Below are positions 778 to 22,088 of a stretch of 64,000 nucleotides of DNA, piece by piece; position 1 is the first letter of the stretch, and each line of letters opens with the position of its first letter. The translations under genes were made by a program, and so were the position numbers. Below the pieces are notes generated by a model, which was given only the letters and a program-made list of their open reading frames with translations, was not told the DNA's origin and searched no databases. Source of the DNA: Negativicutes bacterium (GTDB lineage: Bacteria; Bacillota; Negativicutes; JALHDB01); NCBI GenBank assembly GCA_022840825.1, contig JALHDB010000001.1, positions 211,763-275,762 on the forward strand, written 5' to 3'.

Positions 778-1341
778 ATGATAAAAGGTATCGATGTATC
801 TGTGCATAACGGAATGATAGATTGGCAAGCCGTGGCTGCTGCCGGTATTGAATTTGCCATAATTCGTTGCTCCTATGGTCTCCAATCTAAAGATGCAATG
901 TTTGCTCAAAACATCGCCGGGGCAAAAGCGGCCGGTCTGCAAGTCGGCGCATATCATTATTCCTATGCCCTGAGTGTAGAAGATACAATCCAGGAAGCAG
1001 CCAACTGCCGGGAGGCGATTGAGACAGCGGGGATAGCACTTGATCTTCCTGTGTTCTTCGACATGGAAGACGCGGACGGATACAAATCACGAAATGGTTT
1101 TTCCTTTGATCCTGCAGAAATTACGGCTATGTGTCAGGCTTTTATTGAAAATGTCGGCATTGACTGTGGTATTTATGCTTCTTACTATTGGCTGACTGAT
1201 TATATAGACTGGCGCAGCATAGGTTGTGCAGTTTGGAATGCGCAGTGGGGACCGAATGACGATATCCAAGGATATATCTGGCAGTATACTGATTCCCTAG
1301 AAATCGGCGGGCAATTGTTTGACGGAAATATTAAATATTAG
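778..1341 (+). CDS. GH25 family muramidase (lysozyme, phage endolysin-like), catalytic domain only
   Basis: N-terminal GIDVSxHNGxIDW and IEFAIIRxSYG motifs typical of glycoside hydrolase family 25. Strong GGAGGTGA RBS. Confidence 0.85.
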   Translation: MIKGIDVSVHNGMIDWQAVAAAGIEFAIIRCSYGLQSKDAMFAQNIAGAKAAGLQVGAYHYSYALSVEDTIQEAANCREAIETAGIALDLPVFFDMEDADGYKSRNGFSFDPAEITAMCQAFIENVGIDCGIYASYYWLTDYIDWRSIGCAVWNAQWGPNDDIQGYIWQYTDSLEIGGQLFDGNIKY

Positions 1342-1346
1342 GAGGA

Positions 1347-1535
1347 ATGAACATGGATTGGTTGATTAAAAAGTTAAAGGCAGTAAGCAATTCCCTGGCT
1401 GGAAAAGCCGAGTATTTAGAGAAACTGGATGCCGAAACCAAGGCCAAGATTAATGCCGATACCAAGCGGGCCTTTTGGCTTGGAGTTGGTAGTCTGGCCA
1501 TCATTGAGGGAGTTTTATACCTGGTGGTGAGGTAG
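1347..1535 (+). CDS. small tail-anchored membrane protein (62 aa), possible holin-like lysis accessory
   Basis: Starts 5 nt after the endolysin stop with a GGAGGAA RBS. Amphipathic N-terminus and a single C-terminal TM (FWLGVGSLAIIEGVLYLVV). Confidence 0.45.
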   Translation: MNMDWLIKKLKAVSNSLAGKAEYLEKLDAETKAKINADTKRAFWLGVGSLAIIEGVLYLVVR

Positions 1536-18591: not shown

Positions 18592-18901
18592 GATTTTTAT
18601 GCTAATCATTGGTATGGCACTAGTTACTTTTGCGACTAGATTTAGTTGTGTGGCGTTGTTTAGGCAAATGGGAATTCCTAATTGGCTGGAACGCTGGTTA
18701 AAACATATTCCTACTGCCATTCTTACGGCGTTGATTGTTCCAGCGTTGGTATTGCCGAAAGGGCAAATTGACATATCATTCCATAATCACTATTTATTGG
18801 CGGGCATTGTCGCTGCTGTTGTCGCCTATAAGAGCAGGAATATTCTTGTTACGCTGACCACCGGCATGGGAACTATGCTGGCACTGCGATGGTTTATTTG
18901 A
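18569..18901 (+). CDS. azlD: AzlD family branched-chain amino acid transport protein
   Basis: ~110 aa, 4-TM. Overlaps the azlC stop, suggesting translational coupling. Confidence 0.8.
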   Translation: MVRKMRSEIFMLIIGMALVTFATRFSCVALFRQMGIPNWLERWLKHIPTAILTALIVPALVLPKGQIDISFHNHYLLAGIVAAVVAYKSRNILVTLTTGMGTMLALRWFI

Positions 18902-18978
18902 TTAAAATTTATGGTAGATGGTACTGACTAAAGCTATTGTCTAACGTGGGAGTATGATATTTCTACTGATTAAAGAGA

Positions 18979-19003
18979 AAATAGCGGGTGGTCCCGCTAT
19001 TTA
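18979..19003 (+). terminator. terminator-like hairpin after azlD
   Basis: aatagcggg-tggt-cccgctatt stem. Weak T-run. Confidence 0.45.
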
Positions 19004-19159
19004 GTGGTTAGCAGTATTTTGTTTACGACGATTTAACATAATTATCCGGCTATATGGATGGCTAATTTTTGATCTCCAGCAGTAACAGACGGCAATTTAT
19101 ATATAACTGTTAGTAACTGCTAGGGCGAGAGTTCTTTTCTTTATACTTGAAGATGCTTT

Positions 19160-19294
19160 TTAAGTTGATGGATGATTGATATCATTAGTGTGTTTATCAG
19201 CGAGATAAGTATCATTTTGTGCAGTTTTATTTTTTCTTTTGGTTTTTTTCTGTTCTAAAGAATCATTTGTATGCGGTAATTTTTTGCGGACCAT
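19160..19294 (-). CDS. unannotated small Lys-rich ORF (44 aa)
   Basis: GGAGGTG RBS 6 nt before the ATG. Hand-translated as MVRKKLPHTNDSLEQKKTKRKNKTAQNDTYLADKHTNDINHPST. Below the ORF-track size cutoff. Confidence 0.35.
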   Translation of the reverse strand: MVRKKLPHTNDSLEQKKTKRKNKTAQNDTYLADKHTNDINHPST

Positions 19295-19441
19295 GATTAT
19301 CACCTCCAGTATTAGTTTTGCCAAGATCGTAATGCTATTTCCTGGAAATAAATGTAATTAATTTTTCATTAATGATTGCAATATAAAAAATATGATGAAT
19401 GTTGCGATTGGTAATGAAGCAAGCTAAATGTAAACTGGAAT

Positions 19442-19825
19442 GTGACGGTAAGCAGAGCGGGGGTAATAATCACGTCTAAGCAAACGGTAGTATTTGATTT
19501 TGACGGTGTTATAAATAGCTATACCAGCTGCTGGCAGGGGACTGCAGTAATTTCAGACCCGCCGGTTGAAGGAATCCGCGAAGCAATTGCTAAGATACGC
19601 CGAAGTTATCGGGTTGTAGTTGTGTCGTCAAGATGTTCTCAGCCGGGGGGAATTGAGGCAATAAGAAATTATTTAGAAAAACATAATATTATTGTTGATG
19701 ATATTGCTGTTAATAAACCGCCTGCTGTTGTCTACATTGATGACCGAGCACTTACCTTTGACGGCCATCCGGAGACTTTATTAGCTAAAATTAAGGCATT
19801 TAAACCTTGGAACAAGAATAAATAA
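19442..19825 (+). CDS. HAD superfamily small phosphatase
   Basis: Motif I VVFDFDGVI (DxDG). Later motifs VVVVSS and VYIDD. Confidence 0.6.
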   Translation: MTVSRAGVIITSKQTVVFDFDGVINSYTSCWQGTAVISDPPVEGIREAIAKIRRSYRVVVVSSRCSQPGGIEAIRNYLEKHNIIVDDIAVNKPPAVVYIDDRALTFDGHPETLLAKIKAFKPWNKNK

Positions 19826-19858
19826 TCACCGCCTCTATGAGGCGGTGATTATTTATCT
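19824..19858 (+). terminator. rho-independent terminator
   Basis: 12-bp perfect stem aatcaccgcctc / gaggcggtgatt followed by an atttatctt tract. Confidence 0.6.
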
Positions 19859-19966
19859 TATTCAGCGAGTTAAGACTCCCGCCTCTATAGGCGGCGTCAG
19901 CTCAGGTGGAGTTGACTCTCCACCTGAGCCCCCGATGTTTCAGCTTTGCGCTTTGCTGAAACGAGT

Positions 19967-20122
19967 TCACTCTTGTGTCTCAACTGTATCATCTGTTGGT
20001 TTATCATCTTTTTGAGCTTTGGGAGGCTTGTCTAAGTCATTGGTAGGAAACGATCCTAAGGTCGCTGTAATGAGTTCCGCATCGGAAACACTGGAAAAGT
20101 TGCCGGAAACTAACTTTTTCAT
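19967..20122 (-). CDS. unannotated small acidic ORF (51 aa)
   Basis: Consensus AAGGAGG RBS 6 nt before the ATG. Hand-translated as MKKLVSGNFSSVSDAELITATLGSFPTNDLDKPPKAQKDDKPTDDTVETQE. Structured hairpins lie downstream. Confidence 0.45.
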   Translation of the reverse strand: MKKLVSGNFSSVSDAELITATLGSFPTNDLDKPPKAQKDDKPTDDTVETQE

Positions 20123-20299
20123 AGCAAACCTCCTTGTGTTTTTATTGCAGAATATCGCTATTATATGAATATGTAATTTGATCCATGATTATTCTTGGAA
20201 GTTTTTGCATTTTTTATAGACAAGCTGTAATTGCTATAATTGTAACATCACTATTGCGGTTTACATATTATAGATAGGAATCAGATAGGAGGTTCCTAT

Positions 20300-20473
20300 A
20301 TGATGATTTATTGCTGTAAGTATTGTCCGTGTAGGTTTTGTCCGTATGGATTCTGTCCGTATTATCAAAATTCTAATAATGATTCCGGCAGTATTGGTTT
20401 TATATATTTTCCCGAACTGGTCGTAGGTACATCTTTGCCGCAATTATTTCCGGAACTATATTTTTATCCATAA
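20300..20473 (+). CDS. unannotated Cys-rich small ORF (57 aa)
   Basis: AGGAGG RBS 6 nt upstream. Translation is MMIYCCKYCPCRFCPYGFCPYYQNSNNDSGSIGFIYFPELVVGTSLPQLFPELYFYP. The DNA carries three tandem tgtccgt units. Confidence 0.45.
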   Translation: MMIYCCKYCPCRFCPYGFCPYYQNSNNDSGSIGFIYFPELVVGTSLPQLFPELYFYP

Positions 20474-20552
20474 CTACTTTGCCCACTGATCGGTTTTTTG
20501 TAATCCGGCAGCCTAATTGTCTGCCGGTATTTTATATGGGAATATATATCAG

Positions 20553-20581
20553 TTGATTTTTAGGATAGGTAATTTTATAAT
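20553..20581 (+). promoter_or_regulatory. sigma-A-type promoter of dinB (TTGATT-17-TATAAT)
   Basis: Spacing and hexamers match the consensus. Immediately upstream of the LexA box. Confidence 0.5.
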
Positions 20582-20586
20582 AATAT

Positions 20587-20600
20587 AGAACATATGTTCT
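20587..20600. promoter_or_regulatory. LexA operator (Firmicutes Cheo/SOS box, GAAC-N4-GTTC)
   Basis: Perfect palindrome aGAACATATGTTCt, 18 nt upstream of the dinB start. Confidence 0.7.
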
Positions 20601-20617
20601 ATATTGGGGGCCTAAAG

Positions 20618-21853
20618 ATGCAACGAACAATTTTTCATATTGATTTGAATAATTTTTATGCCAGTGTTGAGTGCTTATACAGGCCGGAACTACGCCATAG
20701 ACCAATTGCTGTTTGTGGCGACGTTGAAGCGCGTCACGGGATTGTATTGGCTAAAAATTATCCGGCCAAGCAATCTGGGGTTAAGACCGGGGAAGCAATT
20801 TGGCAGGCTAAGCAAAAATGTCCGGGTTTGATTACGGTTCCGCCTGATTTTCGCAAATACCTGCGCTTTTCGAGACTGGCTAAGTTAATATATGCTGATT
20901 ATACTGATCAGATTGAACCCTTCGGTATCGACGAGGCGTGGCTTGATATGTCAAGGTCATTAAAGATATTTGGCGATGCACACATGATTGCCACTGAAAT
21001 TAGGCGCCGGTTGCGGGAAGAAATTGGTATTACCGGGTCCATCGGTATTTCGTTTAATAAAATTTTTGCTAAATTAGGCAGCGATTTAAACAAGCCGGAT
21101 GCTACAACTGTTATTACGGAGAACAATTTTCAAAAAATAGTATGGCCGCTGCCGGTGGGCGAATTACTGTATGTTGGACGTTCAACCCAGCGGAAACTTG
21201 AAAATCGCGCGATATTTACCGTCGGTGATCTTGCTAAAGCTGATGTAAACGGTTTGCGTCTGTTACTAGGCGTGTGGGGTGAGACGTTATGGAATTTTGC
21301 TAATGGTTATGATGCAGCTGTCGTGCGGCATTCCGGGGAAGAGTATTTAATTAAATCTGTCGGTAACAGCACTACTACAGCACGGGATTTAAGAAATGAA
21401 CAAGATGCAAAATTAATAATTTTTGTACTTAGCGAGAGTATTGCCGCGCGGCTGCGTGAGCTTGGACTAAAATGCACAACAGTTGCGATTACTATACGGA
21501 ATATTGAACTTGTATCATGCGTAAGGCAAGGAAAACTAACAAGACCGTCATTTTTGTCTGCCGAGATTGCTCAGACAGCACTGGAATTGTTGACAAATTA
21601 TAATTGGGATAAACCTATCCGCAGCCTTGGTGTACGCGGTTGCGATTTGGTGACGGCGAATGAGCATATTCAACTAAATTTGTTTGAGGGCGATAGAACA
21701 TCATCGGAAGAACTTGAGAAAACAGTAGACGGAATAAGAGCGCGCTTCGGTCATTATAGTGTACGGCGGTGTTCGATGCTATTAGATCGAAAATTAACTG
21801 GATTCAGTCCCAAAGAGGACCATGTAATTCATCCAGTATCTTTTTTTAGGTGA
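20618..21853 (+). CDS. dinB: DNA polymerase IV (Y-family translesion polymerase)
   Basis: MQRTIFHIDLNNFYASVE and later Y-family motifs. Start placed at the ATG following a GGGGG RBS, since the track's upstream ATG lies inside the LexA box. Confidence 0.9.
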   Translation: MQRTIFHIDLNNFYASVECLYRPELRHRPIAVCGDVEARHGIVLAKNYPAKQSGVKTGEAIWQAKQKCPGLITVPPDFRKYLRFSRLAKLIYADYTDQIEPFGIDEAWLDMSRSLKIFGDAHMIATEIRRRLREEIGITGSIGISFNKIFAKLGSDLNKPDATTVITENNFQKIVWPLPVGELLYVGRSTQRKLENRAIFTVGDLAKADVNGLRLLLGVWGETLWNFANGYDAAVVRHSGEEYLIKSVGNSTTTARDLRNEQDAKLIIFVLSESIAARLRELGLKCTTVAITIRNIELVSCVRQGKLTRPSFLSAEIAQTALELLTNYNWDKPIRSLGVRGCDLVTANEHIQLNLFEGDRTSSEELEKTVDGIRARFGHYSVRRCSMLLDRKLTGFSPKEDHVIHPVSFFR

Positions 21854-21857
21854 TTAT

Positions 21858-22088
21858 ATGGGTAAGATTTTTGTGAAAGTAACAGCAGAGCATAATACTG
21901 ACGGACAAATCCGTCCACTGATAATAACCTGGACAGATGGGAGAAATTTTGCAATTGATCGTATTTTAGCCATATGCCCGGCGGCCTCGCTTAAAGGCGG
22001 AGGGCAAGGTATGCGATATACTTGCCGTATTTACGGTAAGCAAGTATATTTGTTTTGTGATGAAGGCCGGTGGTTTTTAGAAATTTGA
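21858..22088 (+). CDS. small conserved protein translationally coupled to dinB (76 aa; YolD-like accessory role suspected)
   Basis: AGGTGA RBS 4 nt after the dinB stop. A degraded paralog exists at 3463..3665. Confidence 0.6.
   Translation: MGKIFVKVTAEHNTDGQIRPLIITWTDGRNFAIDRILAICPAASLKGGGQGMRYTCRIYGKQVYLFCDEGRWFLEI

What the first reader, a model, noticed from the sequence alone, without database searches (positions are those of the whole stretch)
19160..20480. Cluster of unannotated, strongly translated-looking mini-ORFs upstream of dinB, including a Cys-rich 57-aa peptide
Three ORFs below the 60-aa track cutoff each have a near-consensus RBS. They are a 44-aa Lys-rich protein (19160..19294, -), a 51-aa acidic protein (19967..20122, -) and a 57-aa protein (20300..20473, +). 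The third reads MMIYCCKYCPCRFCPYGFCPYY... and its DNA contains three tandem tgtccgt units. The latter two are divergently arranged across a ~180 bp AT-rich promoter region. The candidates are small sporulation proteins (SASP or coat-like), a metal-binding peptide, or a RiPP-like precursor, but no modification enzymes are adjacent.
Basis: seen in the sequence. Interest (0 to 1): 0.5.

Follow-up and report, generated by a model that had tools for sequence, protein, structure and literature searches.

The report
Small cysteine-rich putative spore-coat protein gene
Two of the three tiny genes are real; the cysteine-rich one founds an undescribed family of small proteins, probably made late in spore formation as spore-surface building blocks, which is interesting but not surprising.

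Summary
All three mini-ORFs, their strong ribosome-binding sites, the 3 x TGTCCGT repeat and the 177-bp AT-rich divergent spacer are at the stated coordinates.

orf57 (20300-20473, +) is a genuine gene.
- It has a 71%-identical homologue in a related contig (dN/dS 0.24).
- Seven more distant homologues occur in metagenomes.
- All share a variable Cys-rich N-terminus (invariant CxxC) and a conserved C-terminal tail, FFPEL-x7-LFPELxFYP.
- No member hits Pfam, NCBIfam or PDB.
- All nine loci carry CATAnnnTA 19-30 nt before the start codon. Seven also have AC 16-17 nt upstream, the sigma-K (late mother-cell) promoter pattern.
- No neighbouring gene is conserved. One copy lies just after a CotA-like multicopper oxidase.
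- Best reading: a new family of small Cys/Tyr-rich spore coat or outer-layer proteins of spore-forming, probably diderm, Firmicutes.
- RiPP and SASP readings are not supported. The position next to dinB, which has its own LexA box, is incidental.

orf51 (19967-20122, -) is also real, with one homologue in the same divergent arrangement (dN/dS 0.21). Its function is unknown.

orf44 (19160-19294, -) has no homologue and is missing from the syntenic relative. It may be spurious.

The parts
20300..20473 (+). orf57: a 57-aa protein with a Cys-rich N-terminus (three CPxxF repeats, invariant CxxC) and a conserved C-terminal tail FPEL-x7-LFPELYFYP. It is the founding member of an undescribed small-protein family.
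   Evidence: ORF. A 58-aa homologue in L088 has dN/dS 0.24. Distant homologues are P0005-P0007 and L093-L097. The tail codons differ mostly at third positions, 213/156/512. No Pfam, NCBIfam or PDB hit.
20245..20272 (+). Putative sigma-K-type (late mother-cell) promoter of orf57: AC at 20245-20246, a 17-nt spacer, and CATATTATA at 20264-20272.
   Evidence: CATAnnnTA is present 19-30 nt before the start in all 9 family loci, and AC lies 16-17 nt upstream in 7 of 9. The spacers are unrelated in sequence. It is the only intergenic match of six in the window. The consensus is taken from PMC3789822 and PMC517825.
20287..20292 (+). Shine-Dalgarno site AGGAGG of orf57.
   Evidence: It is identical in L088.
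20505..20535 (+). Terminator-like hairpin CCGGCAG-N9-CTGCCGG followed by UAUUUUAU. It closes a monocistronic orf57 unit before the dinB promoter.
   Evidence: Fold. L088 has a different hairpin (GCCCGC-N5-GCGGGC-TTTGTT) directly after its homologue.
19967..20122 (-). orf51: a 51-aa protein with a conserved N-terminal 35 residues (one predicted helix) and a variable acidic tail. It is a real gene of unknown function.
   Evidence: Its one homologue, P0003, is 69% identical and sits in the same divergent arrangement in L088. dN/dS is 0.21. The codon-usage score of 0.286 is typical of real genes. AF2 gives pLDDT 66 with a helix at residues 14-22.
20151..20194 (-). A 44-nt block upstream of orf51 that is almost identical in L088. 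It contains ATA-N16-CATATTCA (sigma-E-like) and an overlapping TATAAT. It is a probable promoter or operator of orf51.
   Evidence: Alignment. It is more conserved than synonymous sites of the flanking genes (pS about 0.45). Assigning a sigma factor to it is inference only.
19160..19294 (-). orf44: a 44-aa Lys-rich ORF with a perfect SD (GGAGGTGA at 19307..19300). Its status as a gene is unproven.
   Evidence: No homologue among 5.8 billion proteins apart from itself. The segment is replaced by a shorter sequence without an ORF in the syntenic L088. The codon score of 0.118 is intermediate. About 0.9 chance ORFs of this kind are expected per window.
19442..19825 (+). orf127: a small HAD-like hydrolase that is syntenic with orf51 and orf57 in L088.
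   Evidence: Weak HAD-IIIA / HAD_SAK_2 hits. The L088 homologue is 82% identical by tblastn, with dN/dS 0.18.
19826..19968 (.). Four consecutive strong hairpins between the convergent orf127 and orf51. The first (19826-19848) works as a bidirectional terminator.
   Evidence: Fold z-scores of -7.8 and -8.9. Absent from L088. Not repeated elsewhere in the window.
20553..20599 (+). dinB's own promoter (TTGATT-17-TATAAT) and LexA/Cheo box GAACATATGTTC (20588-20599). Together they show that dinB is a separate SOS unit.
   Evidence: It is the only GAAC-N4-GTTC in the window.

Best explanation
orf57 is a real, monocistronic gene for a 57-aa protein. It belongs to a previously undescribed family of 57 to about 80 aa.

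Family members have a basic, variable Cys/Tyr/Pro-rich N-terminal half. It carries an invariant CxxC plus further Cys, here as three CPxxF repeats. They also have a strongly conserved C-terminal tail, F-FPEL-x7-LFPEL-x-FYP-COOH.

I infer that it is transcribed by sigma-K RNA polymerase in the mother cell late in endospore formation. I further infer that it is deposited as a structural, cross-linkable (disulfide, or Tyr-Tyr via laccase) component of the spore coat or outermost layer. The conserved double-FPEL tail would serve as the docking or assembly motif.

What is shown: the gene is under purifying selection at the protein level, the family exists, the promoter motif is conserved, and there is no conserved partner gene. 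What is inferred: sigma-K dependence, spore localisation and the role of the tail.

orf51 is a second real small gene (one helix plus an acidic tail). It is divergently paired with orf57 only in this lineage and may also be expressed in the mother cell. orf44 is unsupported. Adjacency to dinB is coincidental.
For: Coding status:
- Window versus L088 gives dN/dS 0.24 for orf57 and 0.21 for orf51, similar to 0.18 for the neighbouring HAD-like gene.
- In nine family members the last 24 codons differ 213/156/512 times at codon positions 1/2/3.

Family:
- An exhaustive HMMER search found P0005-P0007.
- A metagenome scan found L093-L097.
- Alignment A2 has invariant C11, C14 and F37 P38 L40 S45 L49 F50 P51 E52 L53 F55 Y56 P57.

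Promoter:
- 9 of 9 loci have CATAnnnTA 19-30 nt before the start. The background rate is 3.9e-4 per nt.
- 7 of 9 have AC 16-17 nt upstream. The background rate for the composite is 6e-5 per nt.
- The spacer sequences between the two elements are unrelated, so this is a footprint rather than shared ancestry alone.
- In the 64-kb window it is the only such site that is intergenic and followed by an SD and ORF.
- The pattern equals the published sigma-K consensus, -35 AC and -10 CATATAAT (PMC3789822). Recognition is reported as conserved among endospore formers (PMC517825).
- The sigma-70-like site found by the scan at 20213-20240 is not conserved in L088.

Context:
- The L091 homologue starts 119 nt after a multicopper oxidase that has its own CATAGGATA box. 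It lies near YkvP_N/CgeB-type glycosyltransferases.
- L093 carries a YetF/DUF421 gene and a CsgG-like lipoprotein gene.

The unit has its own terminator, and dinB has its own LexA box.
Against: - No expression or proteomic data exist.
- The window itself contains no recognisable sporulation gene, so the sporulation capacity of the host is inferred, not shown.
- 2 of 9 loci (L091, L096) lack the AC at the right spacing.
- CATA-type -10 boxes do not separate sigma-K from sigma-E. AT-rich promoters also overlap sigma-70-like hexamers.
- The family was found only in uncultured material. It was not found within 8 kb of dinB in 80 related genomes.
- The AF2 model is uninformative, with pLDDT 50.
- The codon-usage score of orf57 is atypical at -0.08, explained by its composition.
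Confidence: 0.6

Rival explanations
1. orf57 is a precursor of a ribosomally synthesised, post-translationally modified or secreted peptide. The conserved C-terminal FPEL tail would act as a follower (recognition) sequence, and the variable Cys-rich N-terminus would be the core (thioether or disulfide). The modifying enzymes would be encoded elsewhere.
For: The architecture is a variable Cys-rich half joined to a conserved half. L091 has a radical-SAM gene and a CxxCxxCC-domain gene within 3.5 kb.
Against: No enzyme, transporter or protease gene is shared by any two of the nine loci. The radical-SAM gene in L091 is on the opposite strand, separated by two genes, and is unique to that locus. 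There is no signal or leader cleavage motif. The mother-cell-type promoter fits an intracellularly deposited protein.
Confidence: 0.07
2. orf57 is a small cytoplasmic metal-binding (Zn or Fe knuckle) or redox-active protein with no structural role in the spore. It could be a regulator or chaperone, possibly still sporulation-timed.
For: There is an invariant CxxC followed by CC or C within about 10 residues. The profile gives weak, non-significant resemblance to rubredoxin and L32 zinc knuckles, E 0.4-1.7.
Against: Apart from the CxxC, Cys number and spacing vary among members. No significant match exists to any metal-binding family. The most conserved part is the Cys-free tail. High Tyr, Pro and Phe content and predicted lack of fold are more typical of coat proteins.
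Confidence: 0.15
3. The mini-ORFs are chance ORFs in AT-rich intergenic DNA and are not genes.
For: For orf44 only. It has no homologue and is missing from syntenic L088. About 0.9 ORFs with SD, ATG and at least 40 aa are expected by chance per window. Its codon score is intermediate.
Against: For orf57 and orf51 this is refuted by dN/dS and by homologues. For orf44, the SD GGAGGTGA is an 8-nt match at ideal spacing. L088 keeps a short A-rich remnant resembling codons 13-21, which could mean loss in L088 rather than absence of a gene.
Confidence: 0.12

Closest known systems
Cysteine-rich spore surface proteins: CotY/CotZ (B. subtilis crust), CotY/ExsY (B. cereus exosporium, PMC8546674), CdeC/CdeM (C. 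difficile exosporium, PMC6101409)
   Same: They are Cys-rich and mother-cell expressed (sigma-K in the known cases). They are lineage-restricted structural proteins of the outermost spore layers that self-assemble or cross-link. They are usually encoded as stand-alone genes.
   Different: There is no sequence similarity: no Pfam or NCBIfam hit for any of nine members. The new proteins are much smaller, 57-80 aa against about 160-400 aa. They carry a unique double-FPEL C-terminal tail. Localisation is untested.
Small Tyr/Lys- or Cys-rich coat proteins of B. subtilis such as CotC/CotU, CotG and SscA (from general knowledge, not tested here)
   Same: They are very small proteins of biased composition with low predicted structure. 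They are sigma-K driven and are candidates for oxidative cross-linking.
   Different: They are not homologous. Those families are confined to Bacillaceae, whereas this family comes from Negativicutes-like and other uncultured Firmicutes.
Minor small acid-soluble spore proteins (SspH/I/K/L/M/N/O/P, Tlp)
   Same: The size (about 40-60 aa) and hydrophilic, basic composition resemble orf44. All are small sporulation-associated ORFs.
   Different: No SASP HMM matches any of the three ORFs at E<=1. SASPs are made in the forespore from sigma-G promoters, and no such promoter was recognised upstream of orf44. orf44 is not conserved.
Cys-rich RiPP precursors, e.g. SCIFF/ranthipeptides
   Same: They are short Cys-rich peptides in anaerobic Firmicutes.
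   Different: SCIFF precursors are always next to their radical-SAM maturase and have a conserved N-terminal leader. Here there is no conserved partner, and the conserved part is C-terminal.

Membership tests
Sigma-K (late mother-cell) regulon / spore coat genes | A promoter matching -35 AC, a 16-17 nt spacer and -10 CATAnnnTA just upstream of the gene | tested here: met
   The window has AC (20245-6), N17, then CATATTATA (20264-72). The -10 box is present in 9 of 9 homologous loci and the -35 AC in 7 of 9, with unrelated spacers. It is the only intergenic match in the window. The consensus comes from PMC3789822.
Sigma-K (late mother-cell) regulon / spore coat genes | Transcription that depends on sigK and is timed late in sporulation | not testable with these tools
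   No expression data are available. This needs RNA-seq or a sigK mutant.
Sigma-K (late mother-cell) regulon / spore coat genes | The host is an endospore former (spo0A, sigE/K, spoIVA and so on) | tested here: inconclusive
   No sporulation gene was recognised in the 64-kb window. The nearest DinB relatives include Propionispora and Negativicutes MAGs. The L091 homologue lies among YkvP_N/CgeB-like and CotA-like genes. Whole genomes could not be scanned.
Sigma-K (late mother-cell) regulon / spore coat genes | The protein is physically present in the coat or exosporium | not testable with these tools
   This needs spore proteomics or fusion-protein localisation.
Small acid-soluble spore proteins (alpha/beta-type and minor SASPs) | A match to SASP family models | tested here: not met
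   Pfam and NCBIfam scans of orf44, orf51 and orf57 at E<=1 gave no family.
RiPP precursor | A genetically linked, co-conserved modification enzyme, protease or transporter | tested here: not met
   The nine loci share no neighbouring gene family.
RiPP precursor | A conserved recognition segment joined to a hypervariable core | tested here: inconclusive
   A conserved C-terminal 25 aa with a variable Cys-rich N-terminus would fit a follower-peptide layout. It fits a docking tail on a structural protein equally well.
Zinc-ribbon / rubredoxin-like metal knuckles | Four conserved metal-ligand Cys (two CxxC-type knuckles) and a significant profile match | tested here: not met
   Only one CxxC is invariant and the second Cys pair varies in position. 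The best PDB profile hits are rubredoxin at E 0.38 and L32 at E 0.65, which are not significant.
CotY/CotZ/ExsY or CdeC/CdeM Cys-rich exosporium proteins | Sequence homology to these families | tested here: not met
   No Pfam or NCBIfam hit at E<=10 that is relevant to these families, for any of nine members. The resemblance is functional analogy only.
SOS (LexA) regulon, as a possible link to dinB | A LexA/Cheo box GAAC-N4-GTTC in the promoter | tested here: not met
   The only box in the window is at 20588-20599, downstream of the orf57 terminator and in front of dinB. L088 has a 760-bp insertion between the orf57 homologue and the dinB promoter.

The most novel reading that the evidence does not exclude
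In this reading the conserved C-terminal F-FPEL-x7-LFPEL-x-FYP tail is a new, portable targeting or recognition module. It could be a docking signal that recruits variable Cys-rich 'warheads' to a spore surface scaffold in diderm spore formers. Alternatively it could be a follower peptide recognised by an unlinked maturase, which would make this a new sporulation-timed RiPP-like class.
Probability: 0.1. Interest if true: 0.6.

Novelty: new member of a known kind. Interest (0 to 1): 0.35.

Why it matters
Spore coat and exosporium composition is essentially unknown outside Bacillus and a few clostridia, and completely unknown for diderm (Negativicutes-type) spore formers. Here an unnamed 57-aa ORF becomes a defined family with three usable features: a clear sequence signature, a conserved sporulation-type promoter and a candidate assembly motif. 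This gives a concrete handle for spore proteomics and localisation work in those organisms. It also shows that such genes are systematically missed or left unnamed by annotation. It does not change any general principle.

Tried and rejected
- Pfam and NCBIfam scans of the three ORFs, and of all nine family members, gave nothing.
- A PDB profile search gave only insignificant rubredoxin and L32 hits.
- The word-indexed protein search found only self for orf57 and orf44, and one homologue for orf51.
- I looked for synteny in 80 dinB loci from GTDB species. The regions upstream of dinB are unrelated and none of the three ORFs is present. The nearest DinB is only 72% identical, so this test is uninformative rather than negative.
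- An Rfam scan of 18800-20800 gave only sub-threshold hairpin matches, so there is no riboswitch or sRNA explanation.
- AF2 models of orf57 (pLDDT 50) and orf51 (pLDDT 66, one helix) were too poor for a fold search.
- A viral-contig scan found no relatives, so the family is not phage-borne.
- The sigma-70-like promoter at 20213-20240 was rejected as the main promoter because it is not conserved in L088.
- Codon-usage scoring could not discriminate: orf57 scores like non-coding DNA although it is demonstrably coding.
- A literature search for the assembly and run accessions found nothing.
- I considered and rejected the TGTCCGT repeats as a DNA-level (binding-site or iteron) feature. In L088 the copies have drifted at synonymous positions (TGTCCGT, TGTCCGC, TGTCCAT) while the Cys-Pro dipeptide they encode is unchanged. 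The repeats are absent from distant homologues.

Full report
**Observation**

All three mini-ORFs are at the stated coordinates.
- Each has a GGAGG-type Shine-Dalgarno site at ideal spacing before an ATG.
- The window holds only 19 GGAGG-N4-9-ATG sites. Fourteen open ORFs of at least 40 aa, against 0.92 expected in shuffles. The signal is therefore far above chance as a class, but one chance small ORF per window remains plausible.
- TGTCCGT occurs at 20324, 20339 and 20354, a 15-bp period that encodes CPxxF repeats.
- The divergent spacer 20123-20299 is 177 bp and 29.9% GC, against 40.8% for the window.
- dinB (IMS/Pol IV) lies at 20618-21853. It has its own TTGATT-17-TATAAT promoter and the window's only LexA/Cheo box, GAACATATGTTC, at 20588-20599.

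**Source**

Identical or near-identical sequence occurs in the MAG assemblies GCA_022837255.1 and GCA_022838805.1 and in Logan assemblies. The closest DinB relatives in GTDB species genomes are 65-72% identical. They are soil 'Bacillota' MAGs, Negativicutes MAGs and Propionispora. The window also carries a type IV pilus system and an RND efflux pump. The host is probably a diderm Firmicute of the Negativicutes type.

**orf57 is a real gene and founds a family**

The word-indexed search found only the query itself. Three other routes found relatives.
- Following the one homologue of orf51 (P0003) led to contig L088. It carries, in the same order and orientation, homologues of orf127 (HAD-like), orf51 and orf57. 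The orf57 homologue is 58 aa and 71% identical.
- An exhaustive HMMER search of 1.84 billion representatives found three more distant members, P0005-P0007.
- A metagenome scan with the alignment found five further loci, L093-L097.

Evidence that the reading frame is under protein-level selection:
- Window versus L088 gives dN/dS 0.24 for orf57. orf51 gives 0.21 and orf127 gives 0.18.
- Across nine members the last 24 codons differ 213/156/512 times at positions 1/2/3.

The family signature (alignment A2) has three parts:
- a basic N-terminus;
- an invariant CxxC plus further Cys in a Tyr/Pro/Phe-rich, variable half;
- a nearly invariant tail, F-FPEL-x7-LFPEL-x-FYP, at the very C-terminus.

No member matches Pfam, NCBIfam or the PDB. 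Public records call them 'hypothetical protein' or give no name. AF2 gives no confident fold, with pLDDT 50.

**Promoter**

| Feature | Result |
|---|---|
| CATAnnnTA 19-30 nt before the start codon | 9 of 9 independent loci |
| AC 16-17 nt further upstream | 7 of 9 loci, usually as GTAACA |
| Background rate of CATAnnnTA alone | 3.9e-4 per nt |
| Background rate of the composite motif | 6e-5 per nt |

- The 17-nt spacers are unrelated in sequence, so this is a phylogenetic footprint of the two boxes.
- The window has six composite matches. Only the one before orf57 is intergenic and followed by an SD and ORF.
- The pattern is the published sigma-K consensus: -35 AC with -10 CATATAAT, the 'canonical -10 box for mother cell sigma factors' (PMC3789822).
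- The DNA-recognition determinants are reported to be conserved across endospore formers (PMC517825).
- The sigma-70-like site that the scanner reported at 20213-20240 lies in the part of the spacer that is not conserved in L088.
- A hairpin with a U-run at 20505-20535 ends the unit.

**Context**

The nine loci share no neighbour, which argues against a RiPP cluster.
- The L091 copy starts 119 nt after a multicopper oxidase (CotA-like) that itself has a CATAGGATA box. It lies near YkvP_N/CgeB-type glycosyltransferases.
- L093 carries YetF/DUF421 and CsgG-like genes.
- In L088 a 760-bp insert (glucosaminidase plus a 61-aa membrane protein) separates the homologue from the dinB promoter. The dinB adjacency is therefore incidental.
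- The family has no relatives in viral contigs.

**Interpretation of orf57**

I read orf57 as a late mother-cell, sigma-K-type sporulation gene. It would encode a small Cys/Tyr-rich structural protein of the coat or outer layer. This is analogous, but not homologous, to CotY/ExsY and CdeC/CdeM (PMC8546674, PMC6101409). The double-FPEL tail is a candidate assembly motif.

Shown: the coding status, the family, the promoter footprint and the lack of partner genes. Inferred: the sigma factor, the timing, the localisation and the role of the tail. Confidence is about 0.6.

**orf51**

orf51 is a real gene.
- Its homologue is 69% identical and keeps the same divergent pairing.
- dN/dS is 0.21 and the codon-usage score is typical of real genes.
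- The conserved part is residues 1-35, with one predicted helix. The acidic tail varies.
- A 44-nt upstream block (20151-20194) is almost identical in L088. It contains ATA-N16-CATATTCA, which is sigma-E-like, and a TATAAT.
- With only two close sequences, assigning a sigma factor is speculative.
- No homologue accompanies the other orf57 family members.

**orf44**

orf44 is unsupported.
- It has no homologue.
- The segment is replaced by a shorter sequence without an ORF in syntenic L088, apart from a short A-rich remnant.
- Its codon score is intermediate.
- No sporulation-type promoter was recognised upstream.

It may be a lineage-specific gene or the one chance ORF expected per window.

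**Verdict**

This is a new, unnamed family of a known kind of protein and is of moderate interest.

Noticed in passing
window 21858-22088 (+): A 76-aa ORF starts 5 nt after the dinB stop codon. It is conserved (about 40-65% identity) directly downstream of dinB in nearly all of about 80 Firmicute dinB loci fetched. It still has no Pfam, NCBIfam or PDB match. This looks like an undescribed small partner protein of Pol IV in Clostridia and Negativicutes, and may be more interesting than the finding itself.
   Followed up: partly
window 19826-19968: Four consecutive strong hairpins (z about -8 to -9) lie between the convergent orf127 and orf51, and are absent from the relative L088. Contigs of other assemblies of the same organism break exactly at 19949/19950. 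The window has a 7-bp tandem duplication (GCTTTGC) there, while GCA_022837255.1 instead has a 12-bp duplication at 19866. This may be an assembly-join artefact or a hypervariable spot.
   Followed up: partly
window 778-1341 (+) and 1353-1535 (+); L088 155-844 (-): A GH25-lysozyme-like ORF is followed by a 60-aa membrane-protein ORF with a strong SD. The 60-aa protein is homologous to the 61-aa ORF that follows a glucosaminidase gene in L088. That cassette sits in L088 as a 760-bp insertion between the orf57 homologue and the dinB promoter. Together they look like a small 'lysin + holin-like' module that moves between sites.
   Followed up: no
window 19442-19480 (+): The HAD-like orf127 lacks the SD and ATG start used by its L088 homologue, because the ATG is ACG in the window. 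Only an upstream GTG without an SD, or a non-canonical ATA/ATC after GGGGGT, is available. The start may be altered or expression weakened.
   Followed up: no
window 18949-19002 vs L088 2426-2483 (+): The terminator hairpin after azlD is conserved in L088. There it follows a different gene (DJ-1/PfpI), which indicates a rearrangement boundary right at the stop codon. The palindrome TTCCAGGAA at about 19335-19345 is also conserved between the two.
   Followed up: no
L091 1774-2413 (+) and 6466-6828 (-): Three further small Cys-rich ORFs (104, 99 and 120 aa) without Pfam hits share a (V/L)xxDGFxFxGK motif. They lie beside the CotA-like oxidase and the orf57-family gene, and may be additional unannotated coat proteins.
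   Followed up: no
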